This document shows positions 4,531-54,221 of a DNA stretch of 64,000 bases, in pieces (the first letter of the stretch is position 1; every line of letters begins with the position of its first letter). The stretch spans positions 1 to 64,000 of IMG/VR virus record IMGVR_UViG_3300032268_000887. The stretch is one strand, 5' to 3'. Source of the stretch: a virus. Both the position numbers and the translations under genes were made by a program. The notes below the pieces were generated by a model. It searched no databases. It was not told the DNA's origin and was given only the letters and a program-made list of their open reading frames with translations.

Positions 4531-5199
4531 ATGAATAATAATGACCGTATCGCCCCAGCCAATGTGCCAACAAAAAAAATAGATAACATAAGTAAAATTA
4601 TTGGTATTGGGCCAGACACTATAAAGGTAATTAAAAATTTTATTCCGCAATCTGATATTGATGAATTTGTGAACTTTGGAAAAATGATGTCAAAAATTGA
4701 AAAAAATAAAACACATCATTTTACTGTTAATGCTAATAATATTAATAATCCTAAATTACAAAAACAATTTGAGAAATACGAAAATATATTAAGAAATAAA
4801 GCAGAAGAAGTTTACGGACTTAAATTAGATAAAGATAGGCCGTTAGACCTATTTATACATCCAGCAGGGTCTTATCTTGAGCCACATACAGACATCATTG
4901 ATTATCATCAAGAAGAAGTTTACGATCAGCCTAACCTCTTTGCCGAACAAGAAAAAACTTGGCCATTTTTATGGAGTGGGCACTTGTCTATTATTTGTTA
5001 TTTAAACAAAGATTACGATGGAGGAATTTTATATTTTCCAGATCAGGGAGTAGAAATTGTTCCCGAACCAGGAATGTTTGTATGTTTCCCTGGAAACTTA
5101 CACTTCCTTCATGGAGTAACACAGACTACTGGAACAGCAAGATTTACTATTTCGTTATGGACTAGATTTAGTGATTTTAAAAATGAGATTATAAAGTAA
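4531..5199 (+). CDS. 2OG-Fe(II) oxygenase, prolyl-4-hydroxylase-like (subfamily A)
   Basis: PHTD, YLNKDYDGGILYFP, HGV, RF; start moved to 4531 by TACAAT-6nt-ATG. Confidence 0.85.
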   Translation: MNNNDRIAPANVPTKKIDNISKIIGIGPDTIKVIKNFIPQSDIDEFVNFGKMMSKIEKNKTHHFTVNANNINNPKLQKQFEKYENILRNKAEEVYGLKLDKDRPLDLFIHPAGSYLEPHTDIIDYHQEEVYDQPNLFAEQEKTWPFLWSGHLSIICYLNKDYDGGILYFPDQGVEIVPEPGMFVCFPGNLHFLHGVTQTTGTARFTISLWTRFSDFKNEIIK

Positions 5200-10019: not shown

Positions 10020-10312
10020 TACAACTCTTTATCCATTGTTAATGCTTTCCAGTGAGTTGACCATTTTTCTTTTGTTTTGTGAGAGTTAAACTCTTTTGAT
10101 GGTTCCCCTTCTTCTAAATATATTCCACCCCAAAGACCATACTCTTTTCCAGATACTCCAACGGCAAAGCATTTTTTTAATACTGGACAATTTAAACAAA
10201 ATTGATCCATGCTGTCTTTGTAGTCTAGACTGCCTTCTTCGTACTGCTCAAAAAAAACACTAGTTGGCTGACCAAGACATAAAGCAGAATCTTTCCATTT
10301 ATGGTCCTTCAT
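10019..10312 (-). CDS. whiB: WhiB family Fe-S transcriptional regulator
   Basis: W...ALC...FF...CxxCPV...C...GLWGG; start likely MKDHKW (10312). Confidence 0.9.
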   Translation of the reverse strand: MKDHKWKDSALCLGQPTSVFFEQYEEGSLDYKDSMDQFCLNCPVLKKCFAVGVSGKEYGLWGGIYLEEGEPSKEFNSHKTKEKWSTHWKALTMDKEL

Positions 10313-11033
10313 TATAATTTTTCCTAACATCAATGCCAACTGGATCTATCTTGTCAAAATCTGGGAGACCTTCCCAAAGTTGAACAGAATCCAAATATGA
10401 ATATTTTTTATTTTCATCACCTTTTGATTCATTGACATCAAATGAATACCAAGATGGCATGGTATATCTGACTCCGCTTTCTACCTTTTGCACTGTGTGT
10501 TTATATGCATTGTTTCCTGGAAACATAATCATATCTCCTGGCTTTGGTTTTAAGACTAAGTCATAATCCGGAAAAGTAATTTCTCCCCCAGTATACTTAT
10601 CATTTGGATACATCAAAACTGACACGTTGTAAGTATAAAAATTTGCAGCCATTGCTGGAGTTCCGTCTGGTTTTTCACAATCACAATGTAGTTTAGAATT
10701 CATACCAGTTATCCATTTAACAAAATGTGTAGAATTAACTGGTTTTCTAATAATGGGAATTCCGTATTTTTCAGTAAAAAGTTTATATGCTTCAGCATAT
10801 ATTTTTTCTTCATATTTGTCTATAAGTTTGCCGACTGCTGGATTTTCTTCTTTAACTTTGTCTTCTCTTAAATCTTTTCCACCCATAAAATTATCATTAT
10901 CTTTGTACAAGTCAAGATAATTGTTGATGGCTAAAAGATCGTCATCGTTAATAAAATTATTAATTATGACAATGTTGTCTTTGTTTTTTCCTAAAACATC
11001 AAAATAGTTTTGATACGGCTGATAATTTATCAT
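10299..11033 (-). CDS. 2OG-Fe(II) oxygenase, P4H-like (subfamily A)
   Basis: LHCD, YPNDKYTGGEITFP, HTV, RY. Confidence 0.85.
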   Translation of the reverse strand: MINYQPYQNYFDVLGKNKDNIVIINNFINDDDLLAINNYLDLYKDNDNFMGGKDLREDKVKEENPAVGKLIDKYEEKIYAEAYKLFTEKYGIPIIRKPVNSTHFVKWITGMNSKLHCDCEKPDGTPAMAANFYTYNVSVLMYPNDKYTGGEITFPDYDLVLKPKPGDMIMFPGNNAYKHTVQKVESGVRYTMPSWYSFDVNESKGDENKKYSYLDSVQLWEGLPDFDKIDPVGIDVRKNYNEGP

Positions 11034-14910: not shown

Positions 14911-15551
14911 TAGACTTCTCCAGTAGACATTCTTGGTTCTTTTAAACTGTGGTACCACTGCGGTACTGCATATCTAAAACCTTTTTCAATAGGTTTTACC
15001 GTATGAGTAAAAACAAAATTTGATGGAAAAAATATAACACTTCCAGCCTCTGGTTTAATTTGAATATCTACCTGTGGAAAATATATTTCCCCGCCAACAT
15101 AATCATCATTTAAGTAAGCAACTGTAGATAAAACTCTACTGCTAACCCCCTGATCTTGATGCTCTGGCAAGTATCCCGTAGTTCCATATTTTAAAATACT
15201 TAACAATCCCTCTGTTGATTTAATATTTTGAGATGCATGTGGGTATAGTTCTTTTGAGTAATGATTGTATGCTCTTTCAATACCACCAAAAATTTTATCA
15301 TAGACAAAAGATATATGAGAATAAAGTGGGTCTAACTTAAATACATTTTTAGGTTCAGTTATAAAATGCCTTATACAAAATTTTTCTATTTCTGGGTTAG
15401 CCCCATTCCATTCATGCCACGGTAACGCAGCGCTCTTGACACCTCTTGCAAGTTGATCTTGCATATATTCAATAGAGCCAATTGTTTCTTTAGTATTTTC
15501 AATAGCATCTTTATAATAAACCATTCCGGCAGCCAAAATTTCATGTTGCAT
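14910..15551 (-). CDS. 2OG-Fe(II) oxygenase, P4H-like (subfamily A)
   Basis: EHQD, YLNDDYVGGEIYFP, FPSNF, HTV, RY; start likely MQHEI. Confidence 0.85.
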   Translation of the reverse strand: MQHEILAAGMVYYKDAIENTKETIGSIEYMQDQLARGVKSAALPWHEWNGANPEIEKFCIRHFITEPKNVFKLDPLYSHISFVYDKIFGGIERAYNHYSKELYPHASQNIKSTEGLLSILKYGTTGYLPEHQDQGVSSRVLSTVAYLNDDYVGGEIYFPQVDIQIKPEAGSVIFFPSNFVFTHTVKPIEKGFRYAVPQWYHSLKEPRMSTGEV

Positions 15552-18116: not shown

Positions 18117-20033
18117 CTAATTGTGATTATGTGTCATTTCTGCTTGATTAGCCATGTATATATTCTTATACCCTCTTTCTTGAAATTCTTGACAAACAAC
18201 TACCATTTCACAGTCTGGCTCACCAGTTTCTTTGTTTATATGGCCATATCTAGCCCCATCTTTAAATGGTTGGGCTTGGTATAAACAAAACCCACTAGAA
18301 ACAGAATAATATTTTGTATATTTTTGTTTTTTGTATTGCTCAAACAATTCTTGAATTGCTGGATCATACCTAGGACCTTCTCTTGTTGCCCACTGATCAT
18401 ATAACATTCTTCTTCTTTTAGTTGCTGCTGCCACAATATCAAAATTAGGCTCTAGGTCTTTAAAATTTAATATTTTTTCGACATCAGACATTTTAAAATC
18501 TACATCTACATCTATCATTAAAACATAGTCAACGCTATTTAAAAAATTGTTTGCCGTAAGGGCTTTATTCCTTGCTAATGATAGGTTTTTTACTCTATCC
18601 TCATCTTTGGAAGAACCATAAAACCGTGTATTAATTTTTTCAGAAATAATTGACACACCATTAAACATTGAATAGTCTTGTTTAAGCATTAAACTGCTTG
18701 TTGCGTCTACTGAGTCATTTTCATATAAAGACAAATAAAACTCATATTCTGGAAAAAAATCCACCATTCCTTTAATTTTCTTGTAATAGTCTAAATAAAA
18801 ATGTTCATCGTTTCTAATAATAGAACATATTAAAATTTTTTCTTTTTCTTTTTTGAGATCAAGATCCTCTGTTTTGTTTTCAACATATTTATCTATAAAG
18901 CCATCAATGAAATCTGCATAGTCTTTTTTTATTTTATCCCAATTGTAGGTTTGTGAGTGTTTGTATGCGTTTTCACATAAATTTTTATAAACTTCTTTAT
19001 CTTTAAGTATTTTAATTTTTTCATAAAAACTATCCTCATCATCTGCGATTAACATTGCTTCTTCTATTTCTTGATTAGAAAATCCTCTTGCTCCGACAGT
19101 TGATGTGATTATTGGAATCCCATATCCTAGGGCTTTCATCATTTTTAAATGTGTTCCCGAACCATCAAGCATTGGATTAACAAAAGCAAAGGATGTTCTA
19201 AAATATTTATCTAATAGTTCATCATTTACGTGACCAACAATTTGGACATTGCTAGAAATATTTTGAGATTTAATCCCATTGCCACATCCGCCTATAATAA
19301 TAAAATTAAATTCTGGCATCGATTGTGCAAATGCAACAACTTTTTTTGCTGCTGCTTTGTTAGGTGGGTGACCACTACCAACAAAAATAATATCTCTAGA
19401 CTTAAGCCTATTTTCATAATTTATTTTGTCCTGAACCACCGTTCCATTTGGCACATATTTTCCACTAACACTTTGCCCATAGTAATCTTTTATTTTTATA
19501 AAGTCTGAAGAAGAGCAGTATGTAATTTCTTGTGCTTGCTTTAAAATACGAGTTTCCATTTTTTCAACTATTTTTATTAGTTCTTTGTTTTCCCCATGAA
19601 CTTGTTTTGCTAAATCAAGTTCTGCATTATGAGAATTATAAATAATTGGAATGTTTTTAATGTTTTGAAGAAGAGGAGAAACAGAATAATGATCAACAAT
19701 TATAAAATCACAATTTTTTGACAATTCTTTTACTCTGGAGGTAAAGATTTCTAAGTCGTCTTTTAAAAGTTCAAAAACTGTATCATGATTAAGTTTTGCA
19801 AAATCATTAATTAATGTTTGCCTACGCCTGTAAAGGTTGTGCCCTATTTGTGGCTGGAAATAGTATAAATTTTTATTAATTTTTTTATTAATTAGTTCAT
19901 TATTCCAGTTAAAAGATAAAAATGTTACTTCATGTTCTAATAGTGCTTCAATTAATGTTAGAGTTCTTTCTTTACCGCCACTATTTTTAGACCAATCTGG
20001 AAGATTTGCGCTTATAACTAATATTTTTGCCAT
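18117..20033 (-). CDS. fused glycosyltransferase: GT4 (GT-B) + C-terminal GT-A (CAP59/Anp1-like)
   Basis: SHNAE, GSGTHLKM..ALGYGIPIITS..GARG; YENDSVD, RVKNLSLARN, DVD, YDQWA, DCE. Confidence 0.75.
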   Translation of the reverse strand: MAKILVISANLPDWSKNSGGKERTLTLIEALLEHEVTFLSFNWNNELINKKINKNLYYFQPQIGHNLYRRRQTLINDFAKLNHDTVFELLKDDLEIFTSRVKELSKNCDFIIVDHYSVSPLLQNIKNIPIIYNSHNAELDLAKQVHGENKELIKIVEKMETRILKQAQEITYCSSSDFIKIKDYYGQSVSGKYVPNGTVVQDKINYENRLKSRDIIFVGSGHPPNKAAAKKVVAFAQSMPEFNFIIIGGCGNGIKSQNISSNVQIVGHVNDELLDKYFRTSFAFVNPMLDGSGTHLKMMKALGYGIPIITSTVGARGFSNQEIEEAMLIADDEDSFYEKIKILKDKEVYKNLCENAYKHSQTYNWDKIKKDYADFIDGFIDKYVENKTEDLDLKKEKEKILICSIIRNDEHFYLDYYKKIKGMVDFFPEYEFYLSLYENDSVDATSSLMLKQDYSMFNGVSIISEKINTRFYGSSKDEDRVKNLSLARNKALTANNFLNSVDYVLMIDVDVDFKMSDVEKILNFKDLEPNFDIVAAATKRRRMLYDQWATREGPRYDPAIQELFEQYKKQKYTKYYSVSSGFCLYQAQPFKDGARYGHINKETGEPDCEMVVVCQEFQERGYKNIYMANQAEMTHNHN

Positions 20034-20066
20034 ATTATTAATTATACACCATGCTATAATTTTAAG

Positions 20067-20774
20067 ATGGACTATGTTTATATTGCTCGTAATGGAGACA
20101 ATGAAGAATTAAAATATTCTTTAAGGTCAATTGAGCAAAATATGCCAAAGGGAAGGGTCTGGGTTTTAGGCTATCGACCAGTTTGGTATATCGGTGATTT
20201 TATATATATAGAAGATACTGCTAAAAAATTTGACAACATTAGAAATTGCATTAAAGTTGCATCAGAACATCCAGAAATATCTGATGACTTTGTTTTAATG
20301 AATGATGATTTTTTTGCTTTAAACAAAATGGAAACTGTTCCAAATTTTCACGGGGGGCTTCTTGCCGATAAAATTAAACAATATAAAGAGTTAAAAATGG
20401 CGTCAGTCTATATACGTCTGTTAGAATTAACATACAAACAGTTAGTTCTGAGCGGGGTAAAAGATCCAATTGATTATGACATTCATGTTCCTATGGTTAT
20501 GAATAAAAACAAACTTAGGGAATCTTTAAACATTGCTTATTTCCCAAGGTCATCTTACGGTAATTTTGCTAAAATTGGTGGAGAGGAAATAAAAGATGTA
20601 AAAATTTATAATTCTACAGAAAAAATACAATTGGATAAAAATCTTTATTTTGTTTCTGTTGATGATAGATCTTTTCTTAGATTAAAAAATTCAACACTTG
20701 AGTCTGCCTTTCCATTGCCAAGCAGTTTAGAAAATCCTGAATATAGTCTTGCAGATTTTGCTTTAATTAATTAA
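20067..20774 (+). CDS. Stealth-like sugar-phosphotransferase (CR1/CR2-like motifs)
   Basis: MDYVY, EELKYSLRSI, FVLMNDDFF, HVP. Confidence 0.55.
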   Translation: MDYVYIARNGDNEELKYSLRSIEQNMPKGRVWVLGYRPVWYIGDFIYIEDTAKKFDNIRNCIKVASEHPEISDDFVLMNDDFFALNKMETVPNFHGGLLADKIKQYKELKMASVYIRLLELTYKQLVLSGVKDPIDYDIHVPMVMNKNKLRESLNIAYFPRSSYGNFAKIGGEEIKDVKIYNSTEKIQLDKNLYFVSVDDRSFLRLKNSTLESAFPLPSSLENPEYSLADFALIN

Positions 20775-21832: not shown

Positions 21833-22381
21833 TTATAGTTTAAAATCTGGGTCTTGAAATGCTTTTTGTGAGGTGTGCATATATAAAGCGGTATATCTGT
21901 GCCCAGTTTTTACTTCTGTGATTCCATGTATATACTCTGTGCCAGCACTTGGAAAAAATACGGCAGAAAATTTTTTAGGTTTATATGAAAATCCTTGATT
22001 TGGAAAATAAATCTCTCCGCCTTCATACTCTAAGGGATCATTAAGATACATTATAGTGCTCCACTCAATAAATGGCTCTGGTCCCTGGGCATCAATATGT
22101 AGGTCCCCTTTTGTTCCAGCAGTCCAATGGGAACCAAATGCTTTAAATACATAAATATCTTTTAAATATCCATTTAGCCCTTTATGCATTTCATTGCTTT
22201 TGTGGCCATATTTAGTTAACAAATTTATTACTTTTTGATTATAAGGAAACGCCGTTCCCCCATATCTTTTTTTATAATAATCTGGGTATGGATTTGTTTG
22301 AGATGGATTGTTCATTTCACCAATTAAAAGGTTGGCGTCTTCTTCAGAAATAAAATTATTGACTACGGTAATTCTGTGCAC
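21833..22381 (-). CDS. 2OG-Fe(II) oxygenase, P4H-like (subfamily A)
   Basis: LHID, YLND..YEGGEIYFP, HGI, RY. Confidence 0.85.
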   Translation of the reverse strand: MHRITVVNNFISEEDANLLIGEMNNPSQTNPYPDYYKKRYGGTAFPYNQKVINLLTKYGHKSNEMHKGLNGYLKDIYVFKAFGSHWTAGTKGDLHIDAQGPEPFIEWSTIMYLNDPLEYEGGEIYFPNQGFSYKPKKFSAVFFPSAGTEYIHGITEVKTGHRYTALYMHTSQKAFQDPDFKL

Positions 22382-23308
22382 TTAGTCCACCTTTTTTATG
22401 TCTTTAATAAATCTGTTTCCATCTATTTTATCATACTTTGAATCTGTAATTCTATAACTAACATCGTTTGTAGCAAATGGTAGATATTCCAAAGACTTAA
22501 AATTAAAATTATGGTACTGACTAAACTTATCAATAATATCTAAATTTATTTGTCCCACTACACTGTTATGGCCATGTTTAAAAAGATTAATGAGTTCGTT
22601 ATAATTGTGGTATTTAGAAAATGGAACATAATAGTTAAAATCTTCCAATGTGGTATATCCATCTATGTTTACAACATTTTCTGGGGCTGCGTATATTTCT
22701 ATGCCATCTTTAAAGTATTGCAAAGAAAGCGCTTCTTCTTCTCCATAATATTTTAACCATCCTGGTAAATTATAGGGCCCCATAAAACTATTTTTCATCA
22801 TAACAACATTTCCAAATATAAAATTTCTATCTATAAAATTTGTTAATGTGAAATCTTGAATGTTGGAAAATTCTTTTTTAACAAAGAATAAGTCTTTATT
22901 TGTTATTGATACTTTTTTGTTTCCAGAAACTATAACATTTTTATCTTTTACAAAATTAATTAAGTTTAAATCCCAATCCTGATCTACCATTGTTCCAGGA
23001 GTGATAGTTAGGTGATACCTGCCCCCTAACGTAACCTTTAATCTTAAATTTTTATATAATGCAGCACCATCTATGTCATCCCAAGCAACTGGAACATAAG
23101 TTCCATTGCAATTATCATAACTATTTACTAAATCTATTAATAGTTTTGATCTATCTACCCCATTTTGATCATGCCAATGAATAAATAAAAATATTTTTCC
23201 AGACCATTTTTGCATTAAATTTTCTAAAGTCTTAATTGCCTCTTTGCTTTTATAAGAATACATTACAACATTAATGCTATCTATTGTTGTATTTTGTTTT
23301 TCTGCCAT
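22382..23308 (-). CDS. degenerate GT-A protein resembling the GT60 (Gnt1, Skp1-hydroxyproline GlcNAc-transferase) family
   Basis: YHLTITPGTMVDQDWD (cf. YxLQIDSHxRFxxxWD), NFIFG, YYGEEEALS...GIEIYA. Confidence 0.4.
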   Translation of the reverse strand: MAEKQNTTIDSINVVMYSYKSKEAIKTLENLMQKWSGKIFLFIHWHDQNGVDRSKLLIDLVNSYDNCNGTYVPVAWDDIDGAALYKNLRLKVTLGGRYHLTITPGTMVDQDWDLNLINFVKDKNVIVSGNKKVSITNKDLFFVKKEFSNIQDFTLTNFIDRNFIFGNVVMMKNSFMGPYNLPGWLKYYGEEEALSLQYFKDGIEIYAAPENVVNIDGYTTLEDFNYYVPFSKYHNYNELINLFKHGHNSVVGQINLDIIDKFSQYHNFNFKSLEYLPFATNDVSYRITDSKYDKIDGNRFIKDIKKVD

Positions 23309-24036
23309 TATGAAAACCTCTTTTTTTGCCAGACTTCTTCTTTGTAATATCCTGTGACCATAGTTCTTCTTTGCTCAGCCTTAAATTCTTCTTCTTCTAT
23401 AGACTCTTTATCATTTTTAACTTCAATTTCCCATTCATCTCTTTTAAAAGGAATAAATTGCATAATTGGTGTTCCTTTAGGAATTGTGCCAATAAAGTCT
23501 CGTTTTAGAAAAAAGGAAAAAAATACTGGCAATCCCCAGATATCTGAGTCTACCATTCCCGAAAGAGTATAAAATGGCAAATCATACCTATTCATCGGAT
23601 GAGTAACCAAAACAGAGTGTCCTGGTGGGGTACGATAAAACCAATTCATTCTAAATCCAAAATGTAATTGGTGGCAATCGCTTGGAATAGGAACCTGCAA
23701 GGTTGGTCTTTTATCAATTAACATGACTTCGCCTTTCCATGTTAACGTTGGAAAGCCTTCTTTATTTAAACTAACATGTAGATCATCTTCTAGTAAATAA
23801 TAATATCCTGAAGTAATCGCATCAAAAAATGGCATACATTTTTTTGTGTCTACCAAAGTGCCATCAGTTCCTATATGATTTACTGGTTGTAAATTTTTTA
23901 TATCATTTGAGTCTCCATATAGGGCAAGACTTTTATACCATTCTGGAACCATAGTTATTGCTGGAACTGGTGGGATATACATATCTTTAAAATTTTCCAA
24001 TGAAGGAATAAAAGTTATTTTATTTGTTTCACTCAT
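23308..24036 (-). CDS. DUF6065-like / dUTPase-like-fold protein (paralog 2)
   Basis: PEWYK, KKCMPFFDA..GY, RTPPGHS, GMVDSD, KGTPIMQFIPFKR. Confidence 0.5.
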   Translation of the reverse strand: MSETNKITFIPSLENFKDMYIPPVPAITMVPEWYKSLALYGDSNDIKNLQPVNHIGTDGTLVDTKKCMPFFDAITSGYYYLLEDDLHVSLNKEGFPTLTWKGEVMLIDKRPTLQVPIPSDCHQLHFGFRMNWFYRTPPGHSVLVTHPMNRYDLPFYTLSGMVDSDIWGLPVFFSFFLKRDFIGTIPKGTPIMQFIPFKRDEWEIEVKNDKESIEEEEFKAEQRRTMVTGYYKEEVWQKKRFS

Positions 24037-24758
24037 CTATATTCCTTTTTTTGTCTAAGGCTATCTCTATAAAAATTTTTAAATCTACTTCTAACTGATA
24101 TTCTTTGTTTTCCTATAACTTTTGCTGATGTTTCAGGATCTACCTTCTCCATTTCATATTTTTCTCTTTTAAATGGAATAACTTGAACTAATGGAGTTCC
24201 TCTTTCAATTACTCCTTTAAAATCTTTTTCAATATACATTGATAAATGGCCATCGCTTATAAATTGATCAGTATCAATAATTGCTGAAAATGCTTGGAAA
24301 GGCAATCCATCTCTATGAATAGGATGTGTAAACAAGCAACTATATCCGCTTTCTGTTCCTACCGACCAAAATGGGAGTATTCTAAAAACTTCTTTGTGAT
24401 ATTTTTTTTCATCTCTTGGATAATGTGAAACTTGTTCTGGACTATGAGATGATACAAGATCTCTTTTAATCATTTTCATTTTTTCTGGAATAGACCAAGT
24501 TATTTTTTCTGGATCAGTAGCATCTATGTAGACATCGCATGGAAAATATATTAAATACCCACAATTTAATGCGTCAAATACTGGCATGCATCTTTTAACA
24601 GTAGAAGAAGATGCTCCTTTTTTAAGAAATTGTTCTTCATCTCCACCATAGGCTGGCTGTTTTTTATACCACTGTGGTATGTTTTTTGATGCTGGAGTTG
24701 GTTCTGGAGACATATCTATTGTCTCCTGATTAAATGGATAAAACTTAACTTTGGCCAT
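24033..24758 (-). CDS. DUF6065-like / dUTPase-like-fold protein (paralog 3)
   Basis: PQWYK, KRCMPVFDA..GY, IIDTD, RGTPLVQVIPFKRE. Confidence 0.5.
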   Translation of the reverse strand: MAKVKFYPFNQETIDMSPEPTPASKNIPQWYKKQPAYGGDEEQFLKKGASSSTVKRCMPVFDALNCGYLIYFPCDVYIDATDPEKITWSIPEKMKMIKRDLVSSHSPEQVSHYPRDEKKYHKEVFRILPFWSVGTESGYSCLFTHPIHRDGLPFQAFSAIIDTDQFISDGHLSMYIEKDFKGVIERGTPLVQVIPFKREKYEMEKVDPETSAKVIGKQRISVRSRFKNFYRDSLRQKKEYR

Positions 24759-25389
24759 AAAACTCCTTTATTCTCTTTACCATTATATCACTACCTGCAA
24801 ATTTTATCAAATATGCCGACTGATTCCTTTTTATTCTACCACATTCCTCGTCTATCATGTGACTTCCTTTATTTTTAAATTTAAAAAATAACATTATTGG
24901 ATCAACTTTATTTTTATTATTTATTTTGCTTTTATATGAAAAATTATAAAAATAGAATGGAGATTGATCAACATTTAAAATCTCAACTTCAATATTATCC
25001 TCATCAATAAACCATGGCATTGCCCACCGAAATACTGGATCAAAATAATCGGGATCTGATGCTTTTATAATTTTAGACAAATAAAATTGTCTCATATGAA
25101 TTTTTTCTATTGCTCTTAAATTTTTTGAATTTCTTATTTTTAATAAAAATATTTCAGCAAAATTTTCTTGACATAGAGTTACAATATTATTATCAATAGA
25201 TATTAATTTTGGTGGTGGGCACAATTTATACATGTATTTGTTTATTGGTTTAATTATTGAATCTTTATGCTCAGTCTTTAATACTTCATCATAATTTAAC
25301 CACTCTGGTTTAATGTTTGATCTTTCATTAATAAATAAAAATGATTCATCAAAAGATTTATACCAAATATTAAAATCAGGACTGTTCAT
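24745..25389 (-). CDS. hypothetical protein
   Basis: ORF; start likely MNSPDF. Confidence 0.5.
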   Translation of the reverse strand: MNSPDFNIWYKSFDESFLFINERSNIKPEWLNYDEVLKTEHKDSIIKPINKYMYKLCPPPKLISIDNNIVTLCQENFAEIFLLKIRNSKNLRAIEKIHMRQFYLSKIIKASDPDYFDPVFRWAMPWFIDEDNIEVEILNVDQSPFYFYNFSYKSKINNKNKVDPIMLFFKFKNKGSHMIDEECGRIKRNQSAYLIKFAGSDIMVKRIKEFYGQS

Positions 25390-26827
25390 TTTTGCCACGT
25401 ATAACTTTGGCGTTATATGTTTTTTCCCATGCCAAAATATCCTCTTCGTCATTTAATAGTGGCTGCCCTTTAATATTTAAACTGGTATTTAATAATACTG
25501 GGACACCAGTAAGTGCATACCAACTAGATAAAACTTCATGTAGTCCAGGATGCTGATCTTTGTTTACTGTTTGTACTCTTGACGTTCCATCTTTATGAAC
25601 TACTGCTGGAATTTTATCTGGCTGCAAACATTTAACTGCATACTGCATATATGGAGATGTAAAGTTCATATCAAACCATTTATCAGCATATTCTTCCAAA
25701 ACTACTGGAGCAAATGGTCTAAAAAGTTCTCTTTTTTTAATTTTATTTACTTCATCTTTTATATTTGCATCTCTTGGATCTGCTAGGATGCTTCTATTTC
25801 CTAATGCTCTTGGTCCATATTCTGCTCTACCGACAGCAACTGCTGCCACTTTATTTCTAATTAACTCTGTAATTATTTCTGATACTGGATAAGTACCGCC
25901 CAAATCATAGCCTAGATAAGGATTTTGCCATTTAATATGCTTTCCATGTGATGCAACTGCTGCTCCTAGTGAACTGCCAGAATCTCCAGGATTTGGCATA
26001 ATCCAGACATCATCAAATATATCCCATAATTTTGTATTAGCAGAACAGTTTAATGCACAGCCACCCATGAATACTAACTCAGTTTTTCCTGTGATAGTTC
26101 TTGCCATTTTCATAAATTCAATAAGTCTAAGTTCATAAACTTTTTGAACTGATGCTGCAATATCAAACTTATCTTGTTCTGTTACCCATCCCCAATCGGT
26201 AATACCTTTATGAAAATTATATTTTTGTTTATTGTGCTCTGGAAAATAATCTTTTACTTTATTATAATATTTATTTGCATCCCCGTAGGCTGCCATACCC
26301 ATAAAAATATATTCTTCTTCATTTGGCTTTAGGCCAACTAATTGTGTAAATGCTGAATAGAATAACCCAAAACTAAATGGATAATTTTTTTTGTAAACTT
26401 GTTTAATGCTTGAGCCATCTCCTACCCATATGGTAGAGGTGTTGTACTCGCCAATAGCATCTAAAACAACAATAACAGCATCACGAAATGGGCTTGTGTA
26501 GTAGCCTGCTGCTGCGTGTGAATAGTGATGGCTAAATGATTCTCTTGGCACCCACCTTAAATCTTTTCTGTCTAAGTAGTGTGGCTTATCTCCACCAAAA
26601 CCACCCTTTAATAATATTCTAGATTTTTTTAACCAACGATTTTCATAATAGGCTATGCGATCTGGCTTTCCATATTGAAGTGCACAATCAATTAATTTAT
26701 CATTAGTAAACCAGTCATTTTTTTGTTTACTGAAGCGTTCTGCGTGTGCAGCAAAAACCAACTCTCCATGTTTTAATAAAGATACTGATGCATCATGAGT
26801 TGTTTCATTAATGCCTAAGATTATCAT
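25376..26827 (-). CDS. carbamoyltransferase (NodU/CmcH family)
   Basis: HDAS, HHYSHAAA, DAIGE, GGCALNC, PGDSGSSLG, EYGPRALGNRSIL, NTSLN. Confidence 0.92.
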   Translation of the reverse strand: MIILGINETTHDASVSLLKHGELVFAAHAERFSKQKNDWFTNDKLIDCALQYGKPDRIAYYENRWLKKSRILLKGGFGGDKPHYLDRKDLRWVPRESFSHHYSHAAAGYYTSPFRDAVIVVLDAIGEYNTSTIWVGDGSSIKQVYKKNYPFSFGLFYSAFTQLVGLKPNEEEYIFMGMAAYGDANKYYNKVKDYFPEHNKQKYNFHKGITDWGWVTEQDKFDIAASVQKVYELRLIEFMKMARTITGKTELVFMGGCALNCSANTKLWDIFDDVWIMPNPGDSGSSLGAAVASHGKHIKWQNPYLGYDLGGTYPVSEIITELIRNKVAAVAVGRAEYGPRALGNRSILADPRDANIKDEVNKIKKRELFRPFAPVVLEEYADKWFDMNFTSPYMQYAVKCLQPDKIPAVVHKDGTSRVQTVNKDQHPGLHEVLSSWYALTGVPVLLNTSLNIKGQPLLNDEEDILAWEKTYNAKVIRGKNEQS

Positions 26828-27033
26828 TAACTAATAACTTTCAGTACAACTTGACAAGGATCTCCACCATCTTCCCATTCTTGTTCTTCTTCTTGAGTCA
26901 TATATGGGTCTCCATCGTGTGTGTTGCAAAATGGAGGAGTTATCCATTTTCTATTAATTCCATTTTCTAGCCAAATTTCAAATTCTTGAATATTTGCTAA
27001 CTCTTCTTTTTCTTCTTTAAAGATATCACTCAT
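26827..27033 (-). CDS. small acidic Cys/His protein
   Basis: FCNTHDG...GGDPC. Confidence 0.55.
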   Translation of the reverse strand: MSDIFKEEKEELANIQEFEIWLENGINRKWITPPFCNTHDGDPYMTQEEEQEWEDGGDPCQVVLKVIS

Positions 27034-27554
27034 TATGCACTCACCGTATCTATTGGCCCTTTACATGAAGGGGAGTATTCTATTGCTGATGCAACTGCTT
27101 GTCTTACTCTATTTCTAGGATTTTTTTGTTTTTGTGTTGAATATAAAGATCCATATGCATACCCTGATCCAGATCCCATACACAAGAATGGCTGTTGATA
27201 TTCTGTTAAAGACATGTCTATTGCGTTATGCTCAAAGATTCTTCCACGAACACAAATGATCATTCCAAAATCAGCATCTTTAGTCGTATCTACCCACCAC
27301 TCTTCATAAAATTTACGTAATGATTTGATAAATTTTGTATACATAAACTTATCTAAATTTCCTTCTGGTAGTGGCGGTTTAAAGTTATGTCTAATTCTTT
27401 CACCATCCATTGTTCCAGCATATCCAAAAAGATATGGTCCAGTTTTCCAAACTTTGGGAGCGACAATAGACATTATATTATCATCATCAGAGGCACCACG
27501 ATCTCCTGCCATATAGACCTTACCATCTTGTTTAACGACAGCAATGATTGTCAT
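27033..27554 (-). CDS. HslV/proteasome-beta-like Ntn threonine protease
   Basis: M-T-IIAV start, AGD, PKV, MGSGSGYAYG. Confidence 0.7.
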   Translation of the reverse strand: MTIIAVVKQDGKVYMAGDRGASDDDNIMSIVAPKVWKTGPYLFGYAGTMDGERIRHNFKPPLPEGNLDKFMYTKFIKSLRKFYEEWWVDTTKDADFGMIICVRGRIFEHNAIDMSLTEYQQPFLCMGSGSGYAYGSLYSTQKQKNPRNRVRQAVASAIEYSPSCKGPIDTVSA

Positions 27555-27614
27555 AGGCTCCCCTTCACTTTTTCTATTTAAGTATACCAAAAAATTTTGG
27601 CTAGTCAAGCACTA

Positions 27615-28190
27615 TTATTTTATAGTTTGTCCACATGCTGAGCATGTTTTAATTTTGTTTGAGGGTTTTTTTGCTGTAGTTGGAGCAGCCCCACCAAATT
27701 TAGGTCTACCAAAGCCTACAATAGACACTAAAATGTTTTTCTTATTTTTCTTATAAGCACGAAGTTTTTTGCAAACCTCTCCACCATTACGCTGGCTACC
27801 CTTTGGATCTCCGGAAGTGTTACCTTCAACACACCAGACTGTTCCGTCTCCATTGTCTGCTACTACTATTGCTACGTGGCTAATTCTATCTACCCCGTCA
27901 GATGGAAAATCAAAATATGCAATGTCTCCTGGCTCTGGATCTGCTAAGTCTCCGTCAATCCAACTACCTGCTTTTTTAAATGCTGCTGCTCCACCAGGCG
28001 TGTAAACAGTGTTAGGAATTTTTACTCCTGCTTCATTCCCGCACCAGTTTACAAAAGATCCGCACCATGGTTGAAAGTCTGCCTTAGTAAATTTACCATA
28101 CTTAGTTTCATTATCTTTAGGACCTTCAACAGTTCCTACTTCTGAAGTAGCAACTTCAATAAGACGGGCTGCTGTACCTTGCTCCGCCAT
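27615..28190 (-). CDS. CHAP-domain endolysin
   Basis: PWCGSFV, PGDI, SHVAIV, VEGNT, VGFGRP. Confidence 0.85.
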   Translation of the reverse strand: MAEQGTAARLIEVATSEVGTVEGPKDNETKYGKFTKADFQPWCGSFVNWCGNEAGVKIPNTVYTPGGAAAFKKAGSWIDGDLADPEPGDIAYFDFPSDGVDRISHVAIVVADNGDGTVWCVEGNTSGDPKGSQRNGGEVCKKLRAYKKNKKNILVSIVGFGRPKFGGAAPTTAKKPSNKIKTCSACGQTIK

Positions 28191-29159: not shown

Positions 29160-31763
29160 TTATTTCCTCCTTCTTGATGCAGTTCCAACTATCACTTGGC
29201 CAGCAATGATTGTTACAACTACAATATCTTCCGCTTTTTCACGTTCTGGAATAGACATATCAGCACCGATGTTAAGCAAGGCTTTTCCTAACTCACACTT
29301 TTGCTCTTCTGTCAAACCTTCTATTGCTTGTTCTGGATTAAAACACCCAGCAATCGCTTCTGCTAATGCTGCTGGGTTTTCTAACACAAGTAATGCAGAT
29401 GCTACCTCTGCTTGAATTACTACGGGGTTTCCATTAATGTCTTCTCTTACTTCTACTGGAATTGTAGGAGGAAGATCACGATATTCAAGTCCCGCCGATT
29501 CTATGTTTGCAGCAGTTACTGGTGCTCCTTCTGCTGAGGTTACCAATACATCTGCAACTAGATCCTTTTCTGCTAAAGTAAATTTACCGTCTTCAGATAA
29601 GACTTCAGATAAATTAGCAACTTCTTCAATTGTTATTTCTCCATCTGCAGATAACATTTCTGTAATAAAATCTGCTTCTGATTCTGTTAATCCACCCTCT
29701 GATAATGTTGATGAAACTTCTGCAGCAATTTCTTCAGATACTTCTCCACCATTAGCAATCGCCTCTAAAACTTCGGTAACTTCAGAAGCATCCAAACCAC
29801 TATCTGAAACCAAATCACTAACTATATCTTGCACTTCTTCTACAGATAAGGTATCATTATCTTGTGCAATTTCTTCAAAAGAATCCTGACTTTCTTCAAG
29901 AATATTTTCTAGTTCATCGTTGGATGAAGATTCATCAGATTCAGGTGTATCCGTTTCAGGAGATTCAATTTCTTCGGAAGGCACTTCTTCAGCAGGGATC
30001 TCTTCCACAGGAGTTTCCTCTACAGGAATCTCTTCTGTTTCTGTACTCTCCTCTTCAGTTGGAATGGTCTCGTCTGGTAAGGTTTGTTCAGGCGCATAAA
30101 TAAAAACTGGCTCTGGGGCTGGGGCTATAATAATTTCTTCTGGTGCGGGTATAGAAATAACAACCTCTGTATATTCACTTACAGGTCCAGACCAGTTAGC
30201 AACTCTAACAGTATAAGTAGCGCCTTCTGTCAAACCACTTAATTCAATAGATGCAGGAGCACCATCTGTATTGTATGTTCCACCAGCATATGGATTTTCT
30301 GCATCAGGATCTTCAGTTACTACCTGATAAAACCAAGTGTTTCCTTCATACCCTGTTGGCATATCTACTTCAACATACATCAATGGACCAACTGCTGGGA
30401 TTGTAATAATGGGTGCTGGAGTTGGAATATTAGCACTAATTGCTGTAGTTAACTCTTGAGCATTTGTGTTTAATTGTGTTTGTAAGTTTGTCTTACTAGA
30501 TACCGCTGAGTTTACGGTATTAGTTAAAGATGTTGTATTAATAGCATTTATTGCTGATGTGTTTGTAGTATTTTGAGCAACTACTGGAGTAAGGCTTGAA
30601 TTTAGTTGTGCAATAGTTGCATTTGCTGCATCAACTGCTGCTTGAACTGTTTCTGTGTTTGGATCTACATACGGAGTAAATGCTGCACCTTGACTTATTT
30701 GTCCAGCAAAACCTGCTCCAACATTAGTATCTGTAATTGGAATAAGTGCGCCATTGGTTGTTTCTCTAACATTAAATCTTGCTTGATCTGGTATTGGCCC
30801 ATTAGCAGTTACACTTGCCATCCAAGCACCATCATTTGGATTTACATCAGCATTAAATCTTATTTGAACCATTTGTGTAGAAGCGTCTTGTTGTGGGTAT
30901 GGACGTAGGTCCCAAGCAATATCTAAACTTGTACCAGTTGTTGCATAAGTAATACCTGTTCCTGTGCTCCAGGTTGTCCAGTCCCATCCCGCTATAGATA
31001 CCGATGGGGCACTTGGAGTTGTATGGTATATGGCACCCTCATTTACACCAAATGTTATAGTTGCATTAGACCCAACATAAACGTTGTTATAAACAGTTCC
31101 ACCCATTTGCATTCCAAACGGAAGATTCATTTGAATACCAGCATCATCTACACCAGCAAGGACATTTGTACTTGTTCCAATAGTAGCCTGCAAATTATTT
31201 ACTGCTGTTTGTGCATTATCAATTGCAATGTTGGCTTGAGTTAGTTCGGTTTGTGCGGTGGCTTGTGCTGTTGTTGCTGTTGTTTTTGCTGCAACGGCTT
31301 CAGATATTTGTACCTGTGCAGTAGATGTGTCAATATTATTTATGGAGGTTTGGCCTGTTGTAATTGTATTTTTTGCATCTATAACTATTTGAGAACTTTG
31401 ATCTATTGGAGTAACGGTTAAGTTTATGTTATTAATTGTTGCAGTGGCTGTGTCTACTAAGGCTATATTTGATTGTGCTATTACTACTGTGGCTGTTACT
31501 GTGTCTACCGCTGCCTGAGCCTCTACCCTTTCAGCAACTGCTACTGCTATGGTGGCGGTGGCGCTATCAGTGGCTGTAATAGCCTGCTGAACCTCTGTAA
31601 TAGCCGTTTCAAGGGCTGTATTAACTGCCTGTTGGGCAGGACTTATAACGACTTGCTCTTGATTATCTGTAGCATAAGCCTCATTGGGCGCCATAAAAGC
31701 AAAAACGGTTATGCACAAGGCAGAACCGAATATAATAAAAAATTTACGTTTTATACTATTCAA
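29160..31763 (-). CDS. large secreted/surface protein (signal peptide, Ala/Thr coiled coil, NIDO-like and FN3-like domains, acidic stalk, C-terminal TM)
   Basis: AYA cleavage site; DDA..MNLPF..YNNVYVGSN; LSGLTEGATYTVRV; E/P-rich region; VVVTIIAGQVIVG-RRRK. Confidence 0.65.
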   Translation of the reverse strand: MNSIKRKFFIIFGSALCITVFAFMAPNEAYATDNQEQVVISPAQQAVNTALETAITEVQQAITATDSATATIAVAVAERVEAQAAVDTVTATVVIAQSNIALVDTATATINNINLTVTPIDQSSQIVIDAKNTITTGQTSINNIDTSTAQVQISEAVAAKTTATTAQATAQTELTQANIAIDNAQTAVNNLQATIGTSTNVLAGVDDAGIQMNLPFGMQMGGTVYNNVYVGSNATITFGVNEGAIYHTTPSAPSVSIAGWDWTTWSTGTGITYATTGTSLDIAWDLRPYPQQDASTQMVQIRFNADVNPNDGAWMASVTANGPIPDQARFNVRETTNGALIPITDTNVGAGFAGQISQGAAFTPYVDPNTETVQAAVDAANATIAQLNSSLTPVVAQNTTNTSAINAINTTSLTNTVNSAVSSKTNLQTQLNTNAQELTTAISANIPTPAPIITIPAVGPLMYVEVDMPTGYEGNTWFYQVVTEDPDAENPYAGGTYNTDGAPASIELSGLTEGATYTVRVANWSGPVSEYTEVVISIPAPEEIIIAPAPEPVFIYAPEQTLPDETIPTEEESTETEEIPVEETPVEEIPAEEVPSEEIESPETDTPESDESSSNDELENILEESQDSFEEIAQDNDTLSVEEVQDIVSDLVSDSGLDASEVTEVLEAIANGGEVSEEIAAEVSSTLSEGGLTESEADFITEMLSADGEITIEEVANLSEVLSEDGKFTLAEKDLVADVLVTSAEGAPVTAANIESAGLEYRDLPPTIPVEVREDINGNPVVIQAEVASALLVLENPAALAEAIAGCFNPEQAIEGLTEEQKCELGKALLNIGADMSIPEREKAEDIVVVTIIAGQVIVGTASRRRK

Positions 31764-53544: not shown

Positions 53545-54221
53545 GATTCTCCCGCTTCAAGCACTATAGTATACATTGTACCACTTATGCTCAATTGCAC
53601 CTCTATCTGTTCGTCTATATCCAAATTCACTAAATCAATAACAATGTCTTGGCTATCATTTAAATATACATTTTCTCCATTAGGGCCGTTACCAATAAAA
53701 GGTATTTTATTTTCTAGTTTAATACCAAAATTAGAAAAATATTTGTCTGAAGTATTTTGTAGGCTTAATAAGCGCTTTGAAGAAAATTCTTGATTTAAAG
53801 ATGTTAAATTTTTAATCAATTGATTAGGAACGTAATCTCCTGAAATTGTGTCATGTCTGGACATAGACAAAAGTTCTTGTCCTCCAATGTCTTCAAACAA
53901 AATATCAATTAACGTTATGGCTGGCAGAGTTTCATCATCAAACAAAATTATTTCCGGTGTAGCAGTTTTTACTTTATACGTTGTTGGTGGGGGTGGTGGT
54001 GGGGCTGGTAAATTTATTGGAACCGCAGTAACGGTTGGCACAAAGATAACAGGGTCGGAAGAAAATGGTACTATGTCTACTACTACTGTTTTATCTTTTG
54101 CTTTAATTGATGTAGTATCTCCTCTTTCTCCCGCTCTATAATTATTCCAGTCCTCACCTCTTGTTACGGCTTTTGTTGTTTTTGAAATAAACTTACCTTC
54201 TCCCGAATTTTCTCCTGGCAT
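53541..54221 (-). CDS. putative tail protein with polyproline linker
   Basis: LPAPPPPPPTT; position. Confidence 0.5.
   Translation of the reverse strand: MPGENSGEGKFISKTTKAVTRGEDWNNYRAGERGDTTSIKAKDKTVVVDIVPFSSDPVIFVPTVTAVPINLPAPPPPPPTTYKVKTATPEIILFDDETLPAITLIDILFEDIGGQELLSMSRHDTISGDYVPNQLIKNLTSLNQEFSSKRLLSLQNTSDKYFSNFGIKLENKIPFIGNGPNGENVYLNDSQDIVIDLVNLDIDEQIEVQLSISGTMYTIVLEAGES

What the first reader, a model, noticed from the sequence alone, without database searches (positions are those of the whole stretch)
21833..26827. Candidate phage hydroxylate-then-decorate operon: carbamoyltransferase, dUTPase-fold pair, GT60-like glycosyltransferase, prolyl-hydroxylase-like oxygenase
Seen: six abutting or overlapping minus-strand genes, in order a NodU-type carbamoyltransferase, an unknown, two DUF6065-like paralogs, a GT-A protein with Gnt1/GT60-like motifs (DQDWD, YYGEE), and a P4H-like oxygenase. 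Known: in protists a prolyl-4-hydroxylase (PhyA) and the GT60 enzyme Gnt1 act in sequence on Skp1, and NodU enzymes carbamoylate hydroxyl groups of sugars or hydroxymethyl bases. Inference: this is a phage pathway that creates hydroxyls and then glycosylates or carbamoylates them. Pro-rich stretches in this phage's own proteins (PAPPPPPP in 53541; PTPAP and PAPEP in 29160) are candidate substrates. Caveat: the GT lacks the canonical DSH motif (it has TPG), so it may be catalytically dead.
Basis: partly seen in the sequence, partly recalled or inferred. Interest (0 to 1): 0.78.

Follow-up and report, generated by a model that had tools for sequence, protein, structure and literature searches.

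The report
Actinophage hydroxylase-glycosyltransferase tailoring cassette
An uncultured lake phage of actinobacteria keeps a fixed block of genes (a prolyl-hydroxylase-type enzyme, a protein-type sugar transferase, three related proteins of unknown role and a nearby carbamoyl-adding enzyme) that probably decorates a protein chemically, but its target is unknown and the sugar transferase in this phage has lost its usual metal-binding site.

Summary
The six minus-strand genes exist exactly as described and are translationally coupled. The core order unknown-DUF6065-DUF6065-GT-oxygenase is kept in all 48 related viral contigs found with the GT, even where the GT is only about 33% identical. The carbamoyltransferase moves: upstream in this clade, 1.5-3.5 kb downstream in the others.

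The GT model (pLDDT 89) is a GT-A fold. It is closest to polypeptide GalNAc-transferases (Z 17-20) and is homologous to a PF11397/GT60-type protein (hhalign 95.6%).

The family's S-D-D/S-D-N site, which aligns with the D-A-H of the PF11397-type protein, is T-P-G in this clade. Even so, dN/dS (0.23) equals that of the clade that keeps the Asp.

The oxygenase keeps H95-x-D97, H152 and R162, and its nearest solved relatives are collagen prolyl hydroxylases. The DUF6065 pair has a dUTPase-like fold (Z 9.7) but no dUTPase sequence signature. The "unknown" gene is probably a third, diverged paralog (hhalign 79%, E 1.5e-5).

The genome has WhiB and no ThyA, ThyX or TET, which argues against DNA 5hmC carbamoylation.

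Best reading (about 0.4): a protein hydroxylation/glycosylation cassette with an unidentified substrate. This scan has noted the same cassette in other phage genomes.

The parts
25376..26827 (-). NodU/NovN/TobZ-type O-carbamoyltransferase (483 aa). It is linked to the core cassette but changes position between clades.
   Evidence: Pfam PF16861 1.2e-53 and PF02543 8.4e-41. phrog_1601 5.6e-106. PDB: NovN 1.1e-56, GdmN, TobZ 1e-41, with HHYSH aligned to the HHLAH of NovN. It lies directly upstream of the core in the 17 T/N-P-G loci and 1.5-3.5 kb downstream of the oxygenase in the others.
24745..25452 (-). First core gene, previously 'unknown' (ORF 235 aa; likely start M22 at 25389, giving 214 aa). 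Probably a third, highly diverged DUF6065-type paralog.
   Evidence: No Pfam, PHROG, NCBIfam or PDB hit. Relatives start at residue 22. The family has only 70 representatives among 1.84 billion proteins. The broad profile A5 against DUF6065 profile A2 gives hhalign probability 79%, E 1.5e-5 over 116 colinear columns, with a shared G-[IV]-I-x-x-G-T-P motif. dN/dS 0.21.
24033..24758 (-). DUF6065-type paralog A (241 aa) with a dUTPase-like beta-barrel fold.
   Evidence: phrog_7084 8e-47. Homologs carry PF19541. AF2 model pLDDT 87.8. In VIA-align against 48,161 chains, the top 22 hits are all dUTPase, dCTP-deaminase or herpesvirus dUTPase-related proteins, Z 9.7 to 5.7, and then Z drops below 5. 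Foldseek E 3e-3.
23308..24036 (-). DUF6065-type paralog B (242 aa), 29% identical to paralog A.
   Evidence: PF19541 1.7e-6, 28.1 bits, above the cut-off. phrog_7084 9e-35. It keeps the invariant K-x-C...D, V-D-S-D and G-T-P-x-x-Q motifs but lacks the S-x-H-x-x-E-Q segment of paralog A. dN/dS 0.09.
22382..23308 (-). Soluble GT-A glycosyltransferase-fold protein (308 aa) related to GT60/PF11397 and GT27. The DxD/DxH position reads T-P-G.
   Evidence: AF2 pLDDT 89.3. Polypeptide GalNAc-T2 at Z 20.0, rmsd 3.3 over 244 residues, with the next families at Z about 15-16. Foldseek E 7e-9. PF11397 in 11 of 35 and PF00535 in 9 of 35 family members. hhalign to a PF11397-type GT: probability 95.6%, E 1.2e-8. 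T-P-G replaces S-D-D/S-D-N. dN/dS 0.23.
21833..22381 (-). P4H/P3H-type 2OG-Fe(II) oxygenase (182 aa). It is always directly downstream of the GT.
   Evidence: phrog_61 1.3e-14. H95-x-D97, H152 and R162 are invariant in 10 orthologs. Profile against the PDB: prolyl 3-hydroxylase 1 at 8.4e-5, Bacillus anthracis P4H at 2e-3, PKHD at 7e-3. dN/dS 0.08.
26827..28190 (-). Upstream genes in the same coupled run: CHAP endolysin (27615-28190), HslV-like peptidase (27033-27608) and a 68-aa ORF (26827-27033).
   Evidence: PF05257 CHAP 1.7e-10. Endolysin PHROGs and phrog_1040 HslV at 8.6e-19. Conserved upstream of the cassette in both clades.
18117..20774 (.). Neighbouring glycan genes, conserved only in this clade: a GT-B (GT4) plus GT-A (CAP59/Anp1) fusion at 18117-20033 (-), and a phrog_7999 protein with a weak Stealth CR2 match at 20067-20774 (+).
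   Evidence: PF13692 1.6e-13, PF11735 8.5e-13, PF03452 3e-7. phrog_7999 5e-55. Present in L002-L018 only.
29160..31763 (-). Candidate substrate (inference only): an 867-aa protein with an N-terminal signal-peptide-like segment and a hypervariable Pro/Glu/Thr stalk (about residues 533-625), 2.3 kb upstream on the same strand.
   Evidence: Sequence and composition. In relatives, tblastn aligns residues 115-532 and 626-867 but not the stalk. The gene is conserved upstream in the near clade and found only patchily elsewhere.

Best explanation
This is a conserved tailoring cassette of uncultured freshwater actinophages, transcribed with the lysis genes.

Shown: five genes always travel together. 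They are three DUF6065-type proteins with a dUTPase-like fold (one very diverged), a soluble GT-A protein of the GT60/GT27 protein-O-glycosyltransferase lineage, and a collagen-P3H/P4H-type 2OG-Fe(II) oxygenase with an intact active site. A sugar-type O-carbamoyltransferase always lies within a few kb.

Inferred:
- The oxygenase hydroxylates a residue, most likely proline, on a phage- or host-encoded protein in the cytoplasm.
- The GT-family protein recognises that site and, in clades that keep the Asp, adds the first sugar.
- Neighbouring glycosyltransferases extend the glycan, and the carbamoyltransferase O-carbamoylates a sugar hydroxyl.
- In this phage's clade the GT has lost its metal-binding motif but remains under purifying selection. 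It therefore either works without a metal or has become a non-catalytic recognition or scaffold subunit, with sugar transfer left to the adjacent GT-B/GT-A fusion.
- The three dUTPase-fold paralogs plausibly form a hetero-oligomer, as dUTPases are trimers. Its role (binding a uridine nucleotide, or presenting the substrate) is unknown.
For: - Gene order unk-DUF-DUF-GT-P4H is kept in 48 of 48 loci despite GT divergence to 33% identity, and in 33 of 79 further DUF6065 loci in three arrangements.
- The reading frames overlap or abut, and there is no internal terminator-like site.
- All six genes have dN/dS of 0.06-0.23.
- The GT fold is closest to protein O-GalNAc transferases (Z 20). LH3 and ColGalT1, which glycosylate hydroxylysine, are also among the hits.
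- The GT family is homologous to a PF11397/GT60-type protein, and 11 of 35 members match PF11397.
- The oxygenase's nearest solved relatives are collagen P3H1 and a bacterial P4H, and its HxD...H...R set is intact.
- The carbamoyltransferase is nearest to NovN, GdmN and TobZ, which carbamoylate sugar or polyketide hydroxyls.
- Further GTs flank the cassette in both clades.
- The genome lacks ThyA, ThyX and a TET/JBP match above cut-off.
- From established knowledge: P4H followed by a GT60 enzyme acts on Skp1 in protists, and actinophage GTs glycosylate virion proteins in mycobacteriophages.
Against: - No substrate is identified. No fibre or Pro-Phe repeat gene adjoins the cassette here, and the Pro-rich candidates are guesses.
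- This phage's GT has T-P-G where relatives have S-D-D, S-D-N or D-A-H, so it may not transfer sugar at all.
- Fold similarity does not prove a protein acceptor.
- Three loci keep the triad and the GT without the oxygenase.
- DUF6065 is solitary in most other viruses and in Rhizobiales.
- The genome holds many other 2OG oxygenases, so oxygenase adjacency alone is weak evidence.
- The role of the dUTPase-fold proteins in protein glycosylation has no precedent.
Confidence: 0.4

Rival explanations
1. Nucleotide or DNA modification pathway. The dUTPase-fold proteins handle a pyrimidine nucleotide, the oxygenase makes a hydroxylated base or sugar, the GT-A glycosylates it as the base-J glucosyltransferase does, and the carbamoyltransferase caps a hydroxymethyl group as in 5-carbamoyloxymethylcytosine.
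For: The two DUF6065 paralogs, and probably a third protein, have a dUTPase/dCTP-deaminase fold. A phage carbamoyltransferase that modifies 5hmC in DNA is proven (PMC8670742). Phage DNA hypermodification genes do cluster.
Against: The 94%-complete genome has no ThyA, no ThyX and no TET/JBP match above cut-off. PMC8670742 reports carbamoyltransferases next to glycosyltransferases only in unmodified contigs. The oxygenase is P3H/P4H-type, not TET/JBP. The GT is closest to protein GTs. DUF6065 has no dUTPase sequence signature, no PF00692 match and no Gly-rich motif V.
Confidence: 0.13
2. Host-envelope or free-glycan remodelling. The genes build or alter a carbamoylated cell-surface polysaccharide or glycolipid during infection, like the LPS-type gene clusters with a Nol-like carbamoyltransferase in cyanomyophage P-SSM2.
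For: The carbamoyltransferase's DNA-level relatives are the Nol-like genes of P-SSM2, S-SCSM1 and a Pelagibacter phage. The flanks hold a GT4/GT-A fusion and a protein with a weak Stealth match. The cassette is expressed with the lysis genes.
Against: No lipid-carrier, flippase, polymerase or nucleotide-sugar synthesis genes were seen in the flanks scanned. All cassette proteins look soluble. A P4H-type oxygenase and dUTPase-fold proteins have no known role in polysaccharide synthesis. The GT fold is nearest to polypeptide GTs.
Confidence: 0.17
3. Small-molecule pathway. The cassette makes a hydroxylated, glycosylated and carbamoylated metabolite, for example a nucleoside- or aminocoumarin-like compound, used against the host or its competitors.
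For: The closest solved relatives of the carbamoyltransferase are natural-product tailoring enzymes: NovN, GdmN and TobZ. 2OG oxygenases and GTs are common tailoring enzymes.
Against: No scaffold-forming genes (PKS, NRPS, cyclases) are present, the cassette is small, and the GT's nearest folds are protein GTs.
Confidence: 0.08
4. No shared pathway. These are independent auxiliary genes that sit together by descent in one phage lineage, and this phage's GT is a decaying pseudo-enzyme.
For: The carbamoyltransferase moves relative to the core. The GT lost its metal site, and it evolves fastest together with the first gene. DUF6065 is often solitary.
Against: The core order survives divergence to 33% identity and one permutation of the triad, always with the GT directly followed by the same oxygenase ortholog. 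The genes are translationally coupled. dN/dS of the GT is 0.23 in the clade that lost the Asp and 0.22 in the clade that keeps it, so there is no sign of decay.
Confidence: 0.1

Closest known systems
Skp1 hydroxyproline glycosylation pathway of Dictyostelium and Toxoplasma (PhyA prolyl 4-hydroxylase, Gnt1 of family GT60, then further GTs including a two-domain GT)
   Same: A cytoplasmic P4H-class 2OG oxygenase sits next to a soluble GT-A of the GT60/PF11397 lineage. Additional GTs are nearby, including a two-domain GT fusion.
   Different: This is a viral, prokaryotic setting with no Skp1. The oxygenase's nearest solved relatives are collagen P3H/P4H types. This phage's GT lacks the DxH metal motif. 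Three dUTPase-fold proteins and a carbamoyltransferase have no counterpart in the Skp1 pathway. No chemistry has been shown.
Polypeptide GalNAc-transferases (GT27)
   Same: Best structural match: Z 17-20, about 244 aligned residues, rmsd 3.0-3.3.
   Different: Sequence identity is only 10-12%. There is no lectin domain and no DxH motif. The acceptor is unknown.
Virion glycosylation by phage-encoded glycosyltransferases in mycobacteriophages (cited from papers listed, and from my own knowledge)
   Same: Actinophage-encoded soluble GTs expressed late and acting on phage proteins.
   Different: Those systems have no hydroxylase, no DUF6065 proteins and no carbamoyltransferase. Here no glycosylated virion protein is known.
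Giant-virus hydroxylation/glycosylation enzymes (chlorovirus PBCV-1 prolyl 4-hydroxylase, PDB 5c5t; mimivirus lysyl hydroxylase-glycosyltransferase, from my own knowledge)
   Same: A virus-encoded collagen-type hydroxylase together with a GT. 5c5t is among the weak sequence hits. The phage genome has a 12-triplet collagen-like protein.
   Different: Those are eukaryotic viruses with a different gene architecture. The collagen-like protein here has Pro only in the X position and lies about 72 kb from the cassette.
5-hydroxymethylcytosine carbamoyltransferase of phages (PMC8670742)
   Same: The same Carbam_trans_N/C enzyme family, encoded by a phage.
   Different: That enzyme co-occurs with a thymidylate-synthase-like dCMP hydroxymethylase. 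This genome has none, and its carbamoyltransferase sits among glycosyltransferases, the context the paper reports for unmodified contigs.
Trimeric dUTPase / dCTP deaminase superfamily
   Same: Paralog A has the same beta-barrel fold (Z 9.7-5.7 for the top 22 hits). By eye, I-D-T-D and G-T-P-x-x-Q resemble dUTPase motifs III and IV.
   Different: There is no sequence-level match, no Gly-rich motif V and no motif IV Arg. The proteins are about 100 residues longer, and three paralogs are encoded in tandem.

Membership tests
NodU/CmcH/TobZ O-carbamoyltransferases | Carbam_trans_N (Kae1-like) plus Carbam_trans_C (YrdC-like) domains above Pfam cut-offs | tested here: met
   141 and 181.6 bits against cut-offs of 24 and 27. 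NovN 1.1e-56.
NodU/CmcH/TobZ O-carbamoyltransferases | H-x-x-x-H metal motif in the N-terminal domain | tested here: met
   HHYSH aligns with the HHLAH of NovN.
Phage 5hmC carbamoyltransferase system (PMC8670742) | Co-occurring thymidylate-synthase-like dCMP hydroxymethylase, or another source of 5hmC | tested here: not met
   No PF00303, no PF02511, and no PF12851 match above cut-off in the 94%-complete genome.
GT-A fold glycosyltransferases | Rossmann-like GT-A fold | tested here: met
   Model pLDDT 89. 998 of 999 aligned GT chains score Z >= 5, and the best is Z 20.
GT-A fold glycosyltransferases | DxD/DxH metal-binding motif after beta-4 | tested here: not met
   T-P-G in the query and N-P-G in close kin. 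S-D-D, S-D-N or G-D-D in other clades, and D-A-H in the PF11397-type relative.
GT60 / Pfam PF11397 (GlcNAc) | Match above the Pfam gathering score | tested here: inconclusive
   The query scores 17.4 bits against a cut-off of 21, over the N-terminal 27 residues only. 11 of 35 family members match at E <= 0.01. hhalign to a PF11397 protein (1e-14) gives probability 95.6%.
GT27 polypeptide GalNAc-transferases | Catalytic-domain fold, DxH motif and usually a C-terminal ricin-type lectin domain | tested here: not met
   The fold is shared, but there is no DxH, and at 308 aa the protein has no room for a lectin domain.
2OG-Fe(II) oxygenases, P4H/P3H class | HxD...H iron triad plus a basic residue that binds 2OG | tested here: met
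   H95, D97, H152 and R162 are invariant. P3H1 8.4e-5 and BaP4H 2e-3.
2OG-Fe(II) oxygenases, P4H/P3H class | Prolyl hydroxylase activity on a defined peptide | not testable with these tools
   Needs an enzyme assay.
Skp1-type Hyp-glycosylation pathway | A defined protein substrate carrying the target proline | tested here: inconclusive
   No adjacent fibre or Pro-Phe repeat gene. Only speculative Pro-rich candidates.
DUF6065 (PF19541) | Match above the gathering score | tested here: met
   23308-24036 scores 28.1 bits against 26.6. 24033-24758 belongs through phrog_7084 and through homologs that carry PF19541.
Canonical trimeric dUTPase | Sequence motifs I-V (PF00692) | tested here: not met
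   No PF00692 match in the genome at E <= 0.1. No dUTPase in the profile search of the PDB. No Gly-rich C-terminal arm. Only the fold is shared.

The most novel reading that the evidence does not exclude
The three tandem dUTPase-fold paralogs form a heterotrimeric adaptor or enzyme that works with a prolyl-hydroxylase and a GT60-type transferase to put hydroxyproline-linked, carbamoylated glycans on a phage or host protein. That would be the first Hyp O-glycosylation system in a prokaryotic virus and a new job for the dUTPase fold. In this clade the GT would have become a metal-independent or non-catalytic subunit.
Probability: 0.2. Interest if true: 0.8.

Novelty: new variant of a known kind. 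Interest (0 to 1): 0.58.

Why it matters
Aquatic phages carry large, unexplained sets of 2OG-Fe(II) oxygenases and glycosyltransferases. A fixed cassette that joins a collagen-type hydroxylase to a protein-type GT gives a concrete, testable biochemical hypothesis: hydroxylation-dependent protein glycosylation in phages of very abundant lake actinobacteria.

It also defines DUF6065, which has hundreds of viral members and further members in haloarchaeal viruses and Rhizobiales, as a dUTPase-fold family. Here that family occurs as a probable triad.

The natural loss of the GT metal site under continued purifying selection offers a built-in comparison between Asp-keeping and Asp-less orthologs.

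Tried and rejected
- Sequence searches of the PDB with the GT (single sequence and profile), the DUF6065 profile and the unk235 profile gave nothing significant.
- tblastn of the GT against 50,697 phage records gave no match, so no cultured phage carries it.
- The narrow unk235 profile (13 sequences) against DUF6065 was not significant (hhalign probability 1.6%; local hmmsearch). Only the broader 39-sequence profile gave 79%.
- The ESM Atlas gave no usable hit for unk235 and only DUF6065 viral clusters for paralog A.
- Promoter-like and terminator-like sites were not more frequent than in shuffled sequence.
- There is no Pro-Phe repeat protein in this genome, so that lead from other phages does not apply here.
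- The Rhizobiales context of DUF6065 (ECF sigma factor, a 247-aa unknown, an S8 subtilase) gave no link to glycosylation.
- Gnt1 structures did not appear in the 50 rows shown by VIA-align. This does not exclude them.

Full report
**Observation.** The window is the first 64 kb of a single 102.7-kb viral contig that CheckV rates 94% complete. GC content is about 33%.

They overlap by 1, 4 or 14 nt or abut with no gap. The coupled run continues upstream through a 68-aa ORF, an HslV-like peptidase and a CHAP endolysin. No terminator-like site lies on the minus strand inside the run, and promoter-like sites are no more frequent than in shuffled sequence.

The host call is supported. The genome has a WhiB gene at 10109-10297 (41 bits). 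Its DnaE-type polymerase is closest to those of Streptomyces phages, at 53% identity.

**Synteny.** A scan of IMG/VR with the GT found 48 loci. In every one the order is unknown, DUF6065-A, DUF6065-B, GT, oxygenase, all on one strand.

This holds in a near clade (GT 58-72% identical) and in a far clade, where the GT is only 32-36% identical. In the far clade the other genes are 45% (unknown), 55%, 60%, 69% (oxygenase) and 72% (carbamoyltransferase) identical.

The carbamoyltransferase is not fixed. It lies directly upstream of the core in the near clade and 1.5-3.5 kb downstream of the oxygenase in the far clade, after a second oxygenase and other genes.

A second scan with the DUF6065 profile gave at least 592 viral matches. 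Of 79 new loci:
- 33 carry the whole cassette, including a third arrangement with the triad permuted (DUF, unknown, DUF, a 1-2 kb insert, GT, oxygenase).
- Three loci carry the triad and the GT but no oxygenase.
- 46 lack the GT. Eight of these have an oxygenase directly adjacent, and 31 have none that the ortholog-specific model detects.

All six genes are under purifying selection, with Nei-Gojobori dN/dS of 0.06-0.23. dS is saturated at about 1.2, so these values are approximate.

**The glycosyltransferase.** The family has about 91 clusters at 90% identity, none with a name. An AlphaFold2 model built on 35 sequences has pLDDT 89.3.

Foldseek and VIA-align place it in the GT-A fold. Polypeptide GalNAc-transferases lead at Z 17-20 (244 residues, rmsd 3.0-3.3). 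Chondroitin and heparosan synthases, cellulose synthase, LH3 and ColGalT1 follow at Z about 15-16.

At sequence level the query matches PF11397 only below threshold. Eleven of 35 family members match PF11397 and nine match PF00535. The family profile aligns to a true PF11397 protein from a far-clade locus (1e-14) with hhalign probability 95.6% and E 1.2e-8 over 239 columns.

That alignment puts the relative's D-A-H on the family's S-D-D and on this protein's T-P-G. Across 80 cassettes the central Asp is present in most lineages (S-D-N, S-D-D, G-D-D). It is replaced by T-P-G or N-P-G in every locus of the clade with the upstream carbamoyltransferase. It was lost separately a few more times (S-Y-G, K-Q-H, Q-Q-C, and T-P-D or S-P-D).

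Other invariant residues are kept: Y19, K22, D47, W76-D77, W112-D113, S128-G129, K186-Y187, G189-E192 and H234-N235. dN/dS is the same in the clade that lost the Asp (0.23) and the clade that keeps it (0.22).

**The oxygenase.** Ten orthologs share 77% mean column identity, with invariant H95-x-D97, H152 and R162. The profile's best solved relatives are collagen prolyl 3-hydroxylase 1 (8.4e-5), Bacillus anthracis P4H (2e-3) and PKHD-type hydroxylases.

It is not a TET/JBP enzyme. The weak PF12851 matches in the genome are all below cut-off and fall on other oxygenases.

**The DUF6065 proteins.** Paralog B passes the PF19541 threshold, and both paralogs match phrog_7084. The model of paralog A (pLDDT 87.8) was aligned to 48,161 representative chains. 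The top 22 are all dUTPases, dCTP deaminases or herpesvirus dUTPase-related proteins (Z 9.7 to 5.7), and then Z falls below 5. Foldseek agrees weakly.

There is no sequence-level match to dUTPases. The family has many invariant polar residues (K55, C57, D62, D75, T135, S140, D162, D164, Q192, R198), which looks enzyme-like. By eye, I-D-T-D and G-T-P-x-x-Q recall dUTPase motifs III and IV, but the motif IV Arg and the Gly-rich motif V are missing. This motif comparison is my reading, not a test.

Homologs are solitary in haloarchaeal Hafunaviridae, next to the tail-fibre genes. In Rhizobiales they sit beside an ECF sigma factor, an unknown 247-aa protein and an S8 subtilase.

**The 'unknown' gene.** Relatives start at residue 22. 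A full HMMER search of 1.84 billion representatives found only 70 members, all about 210-240 aa.

A 39-sequence profile aligns colinearly with the DUF6065 profile: hhalign probability 79%, E 1.5e-5, 116 columns, sharing G-[IV]-I-x-x-G-T-P. The narrower 13-sequence profile did not reach significance.

I read it as a probable third, diverged paralog without the I-D-T-D motif. Three tandem paralogs of a fold that normally forms trimers suggests a hetero-oligomer. That is inference.

**The carbamoyltransferase and the DNA-modification rival.** The enzyme is nearest to NovN (1e-56), GdmN and TobZ. A phage carbamoyltransferase that converts 5hmC to 5-carbamoyloxymethylcytosine is proven (PMC8670742). 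There the gene co-occurs with a thymidylate-synthase homolog, and carbamoyltransferases flanked by glycosyltransferases were found in unmodified contigs. This genome has no ThyA, no ThyX and no TET/JBP above threshold.

**Surroundings and candidate substrates.** In this clade the cassette is followed by a GT4 plus CAP59/Anp1 GT fusion and a phrog_7999 protein with a weak Stealth match. The far clade instead has a PF11397 GT and a weak GDSL-type protein after the carbamoyltransferase.

No Pro-Phe repeat protein or fibre gene adjoins the cassette here. Other notes of this scan describe such neighbours for similar cassettes in other phages.

Candidate substrates are only guesses:
- The 867-aa protein 2.3 kb upstream. 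It has a signal-peptide-like start and a hypervariable Pro/Glu/Thr stalk.
- The tail-region protein at 53541-54221, with PAPPPPPPTT.
- A 12-triplet collagen-like protein at genome 97544-98266. Its Pro residues are in the X position and its Lys residues in the Y position.

What is shown:
- A conserved, selected, co-transcribed five-gene cassette, with a loosely attached carbamoyltransferase.
- Its parts are a protein-GT-like GT-A, a collagen-type hydroxylase and a probable triad of dUTPase-fold proteins.

What is inferred: the cassette hydroxylates and glycosylates a protein. I put this at about 0.4. Envelope-glycan remodelling, nucleotide or DNA modification, a small-molecule pathway, and no common pathway are the rivals.

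For this phage the GT has lost its metal site, so sugar transfer by this protein is doubtful. The same kind of cassette has been noted by this scan in several other phage genomes. I used those notes as leads only.

Noticed in passing
window 10109-10297 (-): WhiB-family gene (PF02467, 41 bits), which points to an actinobacterial host.
   Followed up: partly
G000:C1:97544-98266 (-) (locus L050): A 240-aa protein with 12 collagen-like G-X-Y triplets (GPQGPQGAQGPAGPKGDTGLTGPEGARGEKGKDGKT). Pro is in the X position and Lys in the Y position.
   Followed up: partly
window 29160-31763 (-): An 867-aa protein with a signal-peptide-like N-terminus and a Pro/Glu/Thr-rich stalk (about residues 533-625). 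The stalk does not align in relatives although both flanking parts are 76-89% identical, so it is a hypervariable linker.
   Followed up: partly
window 27033-27608 (-): An HslV/proteasome-beta-like peptidase (phrog_1040, 8.6e-19) sits between the CHAP endolysin and the cassette. It is conserved there in both clades.
   Followed up: no
window 18117-20033 (-): A 638-aa fusion of a GT-B (GT4-type) domain and a GT-A domain of the CAP59/Anp1 mannosyltransferase type. It is present only in the clade whose cassette GT lost the Asp motif.
   Followed up: partly
L182:4189-6642 and about 50 other Rhizobiales loci (L142-L214): Cellular DUF6065 homologs lie downstream of an ECF sigma factor and an unknown 247-aa protein, with an S8 subtilase nearby. 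This context is quite unlike the phage one.
   Followed up: partly
L093:312-347 (+): A PPFFPPFFPPFF repeat lies upstream of a bank of oxygenases and DUF6065 genes in another viral contig. This lineage lacks such a repeat.
   Followed up: no
L028:8888-9514 and other far-clade loci: Far-clade orthologs of the oxygenase carry a conserved C-terminal extension of about 26 residues (…KNPTWQAVEYPLEREAAERE…) that is absent in this phage.
   Followed up: no
L074, L076: Cassette variants with the triad and a GT whose motif reads K-Q-H or Q-Q-C. No oxygenase lies within 3 kb downstream.
   Followed up: no
window 4984-5172, 10479-10634, 14979-15212: Other 2OG oxygenases of the genome give weak Tet_JBP matches, all below threshold. 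None is the cassette's oxygenase.
   Followed up: no
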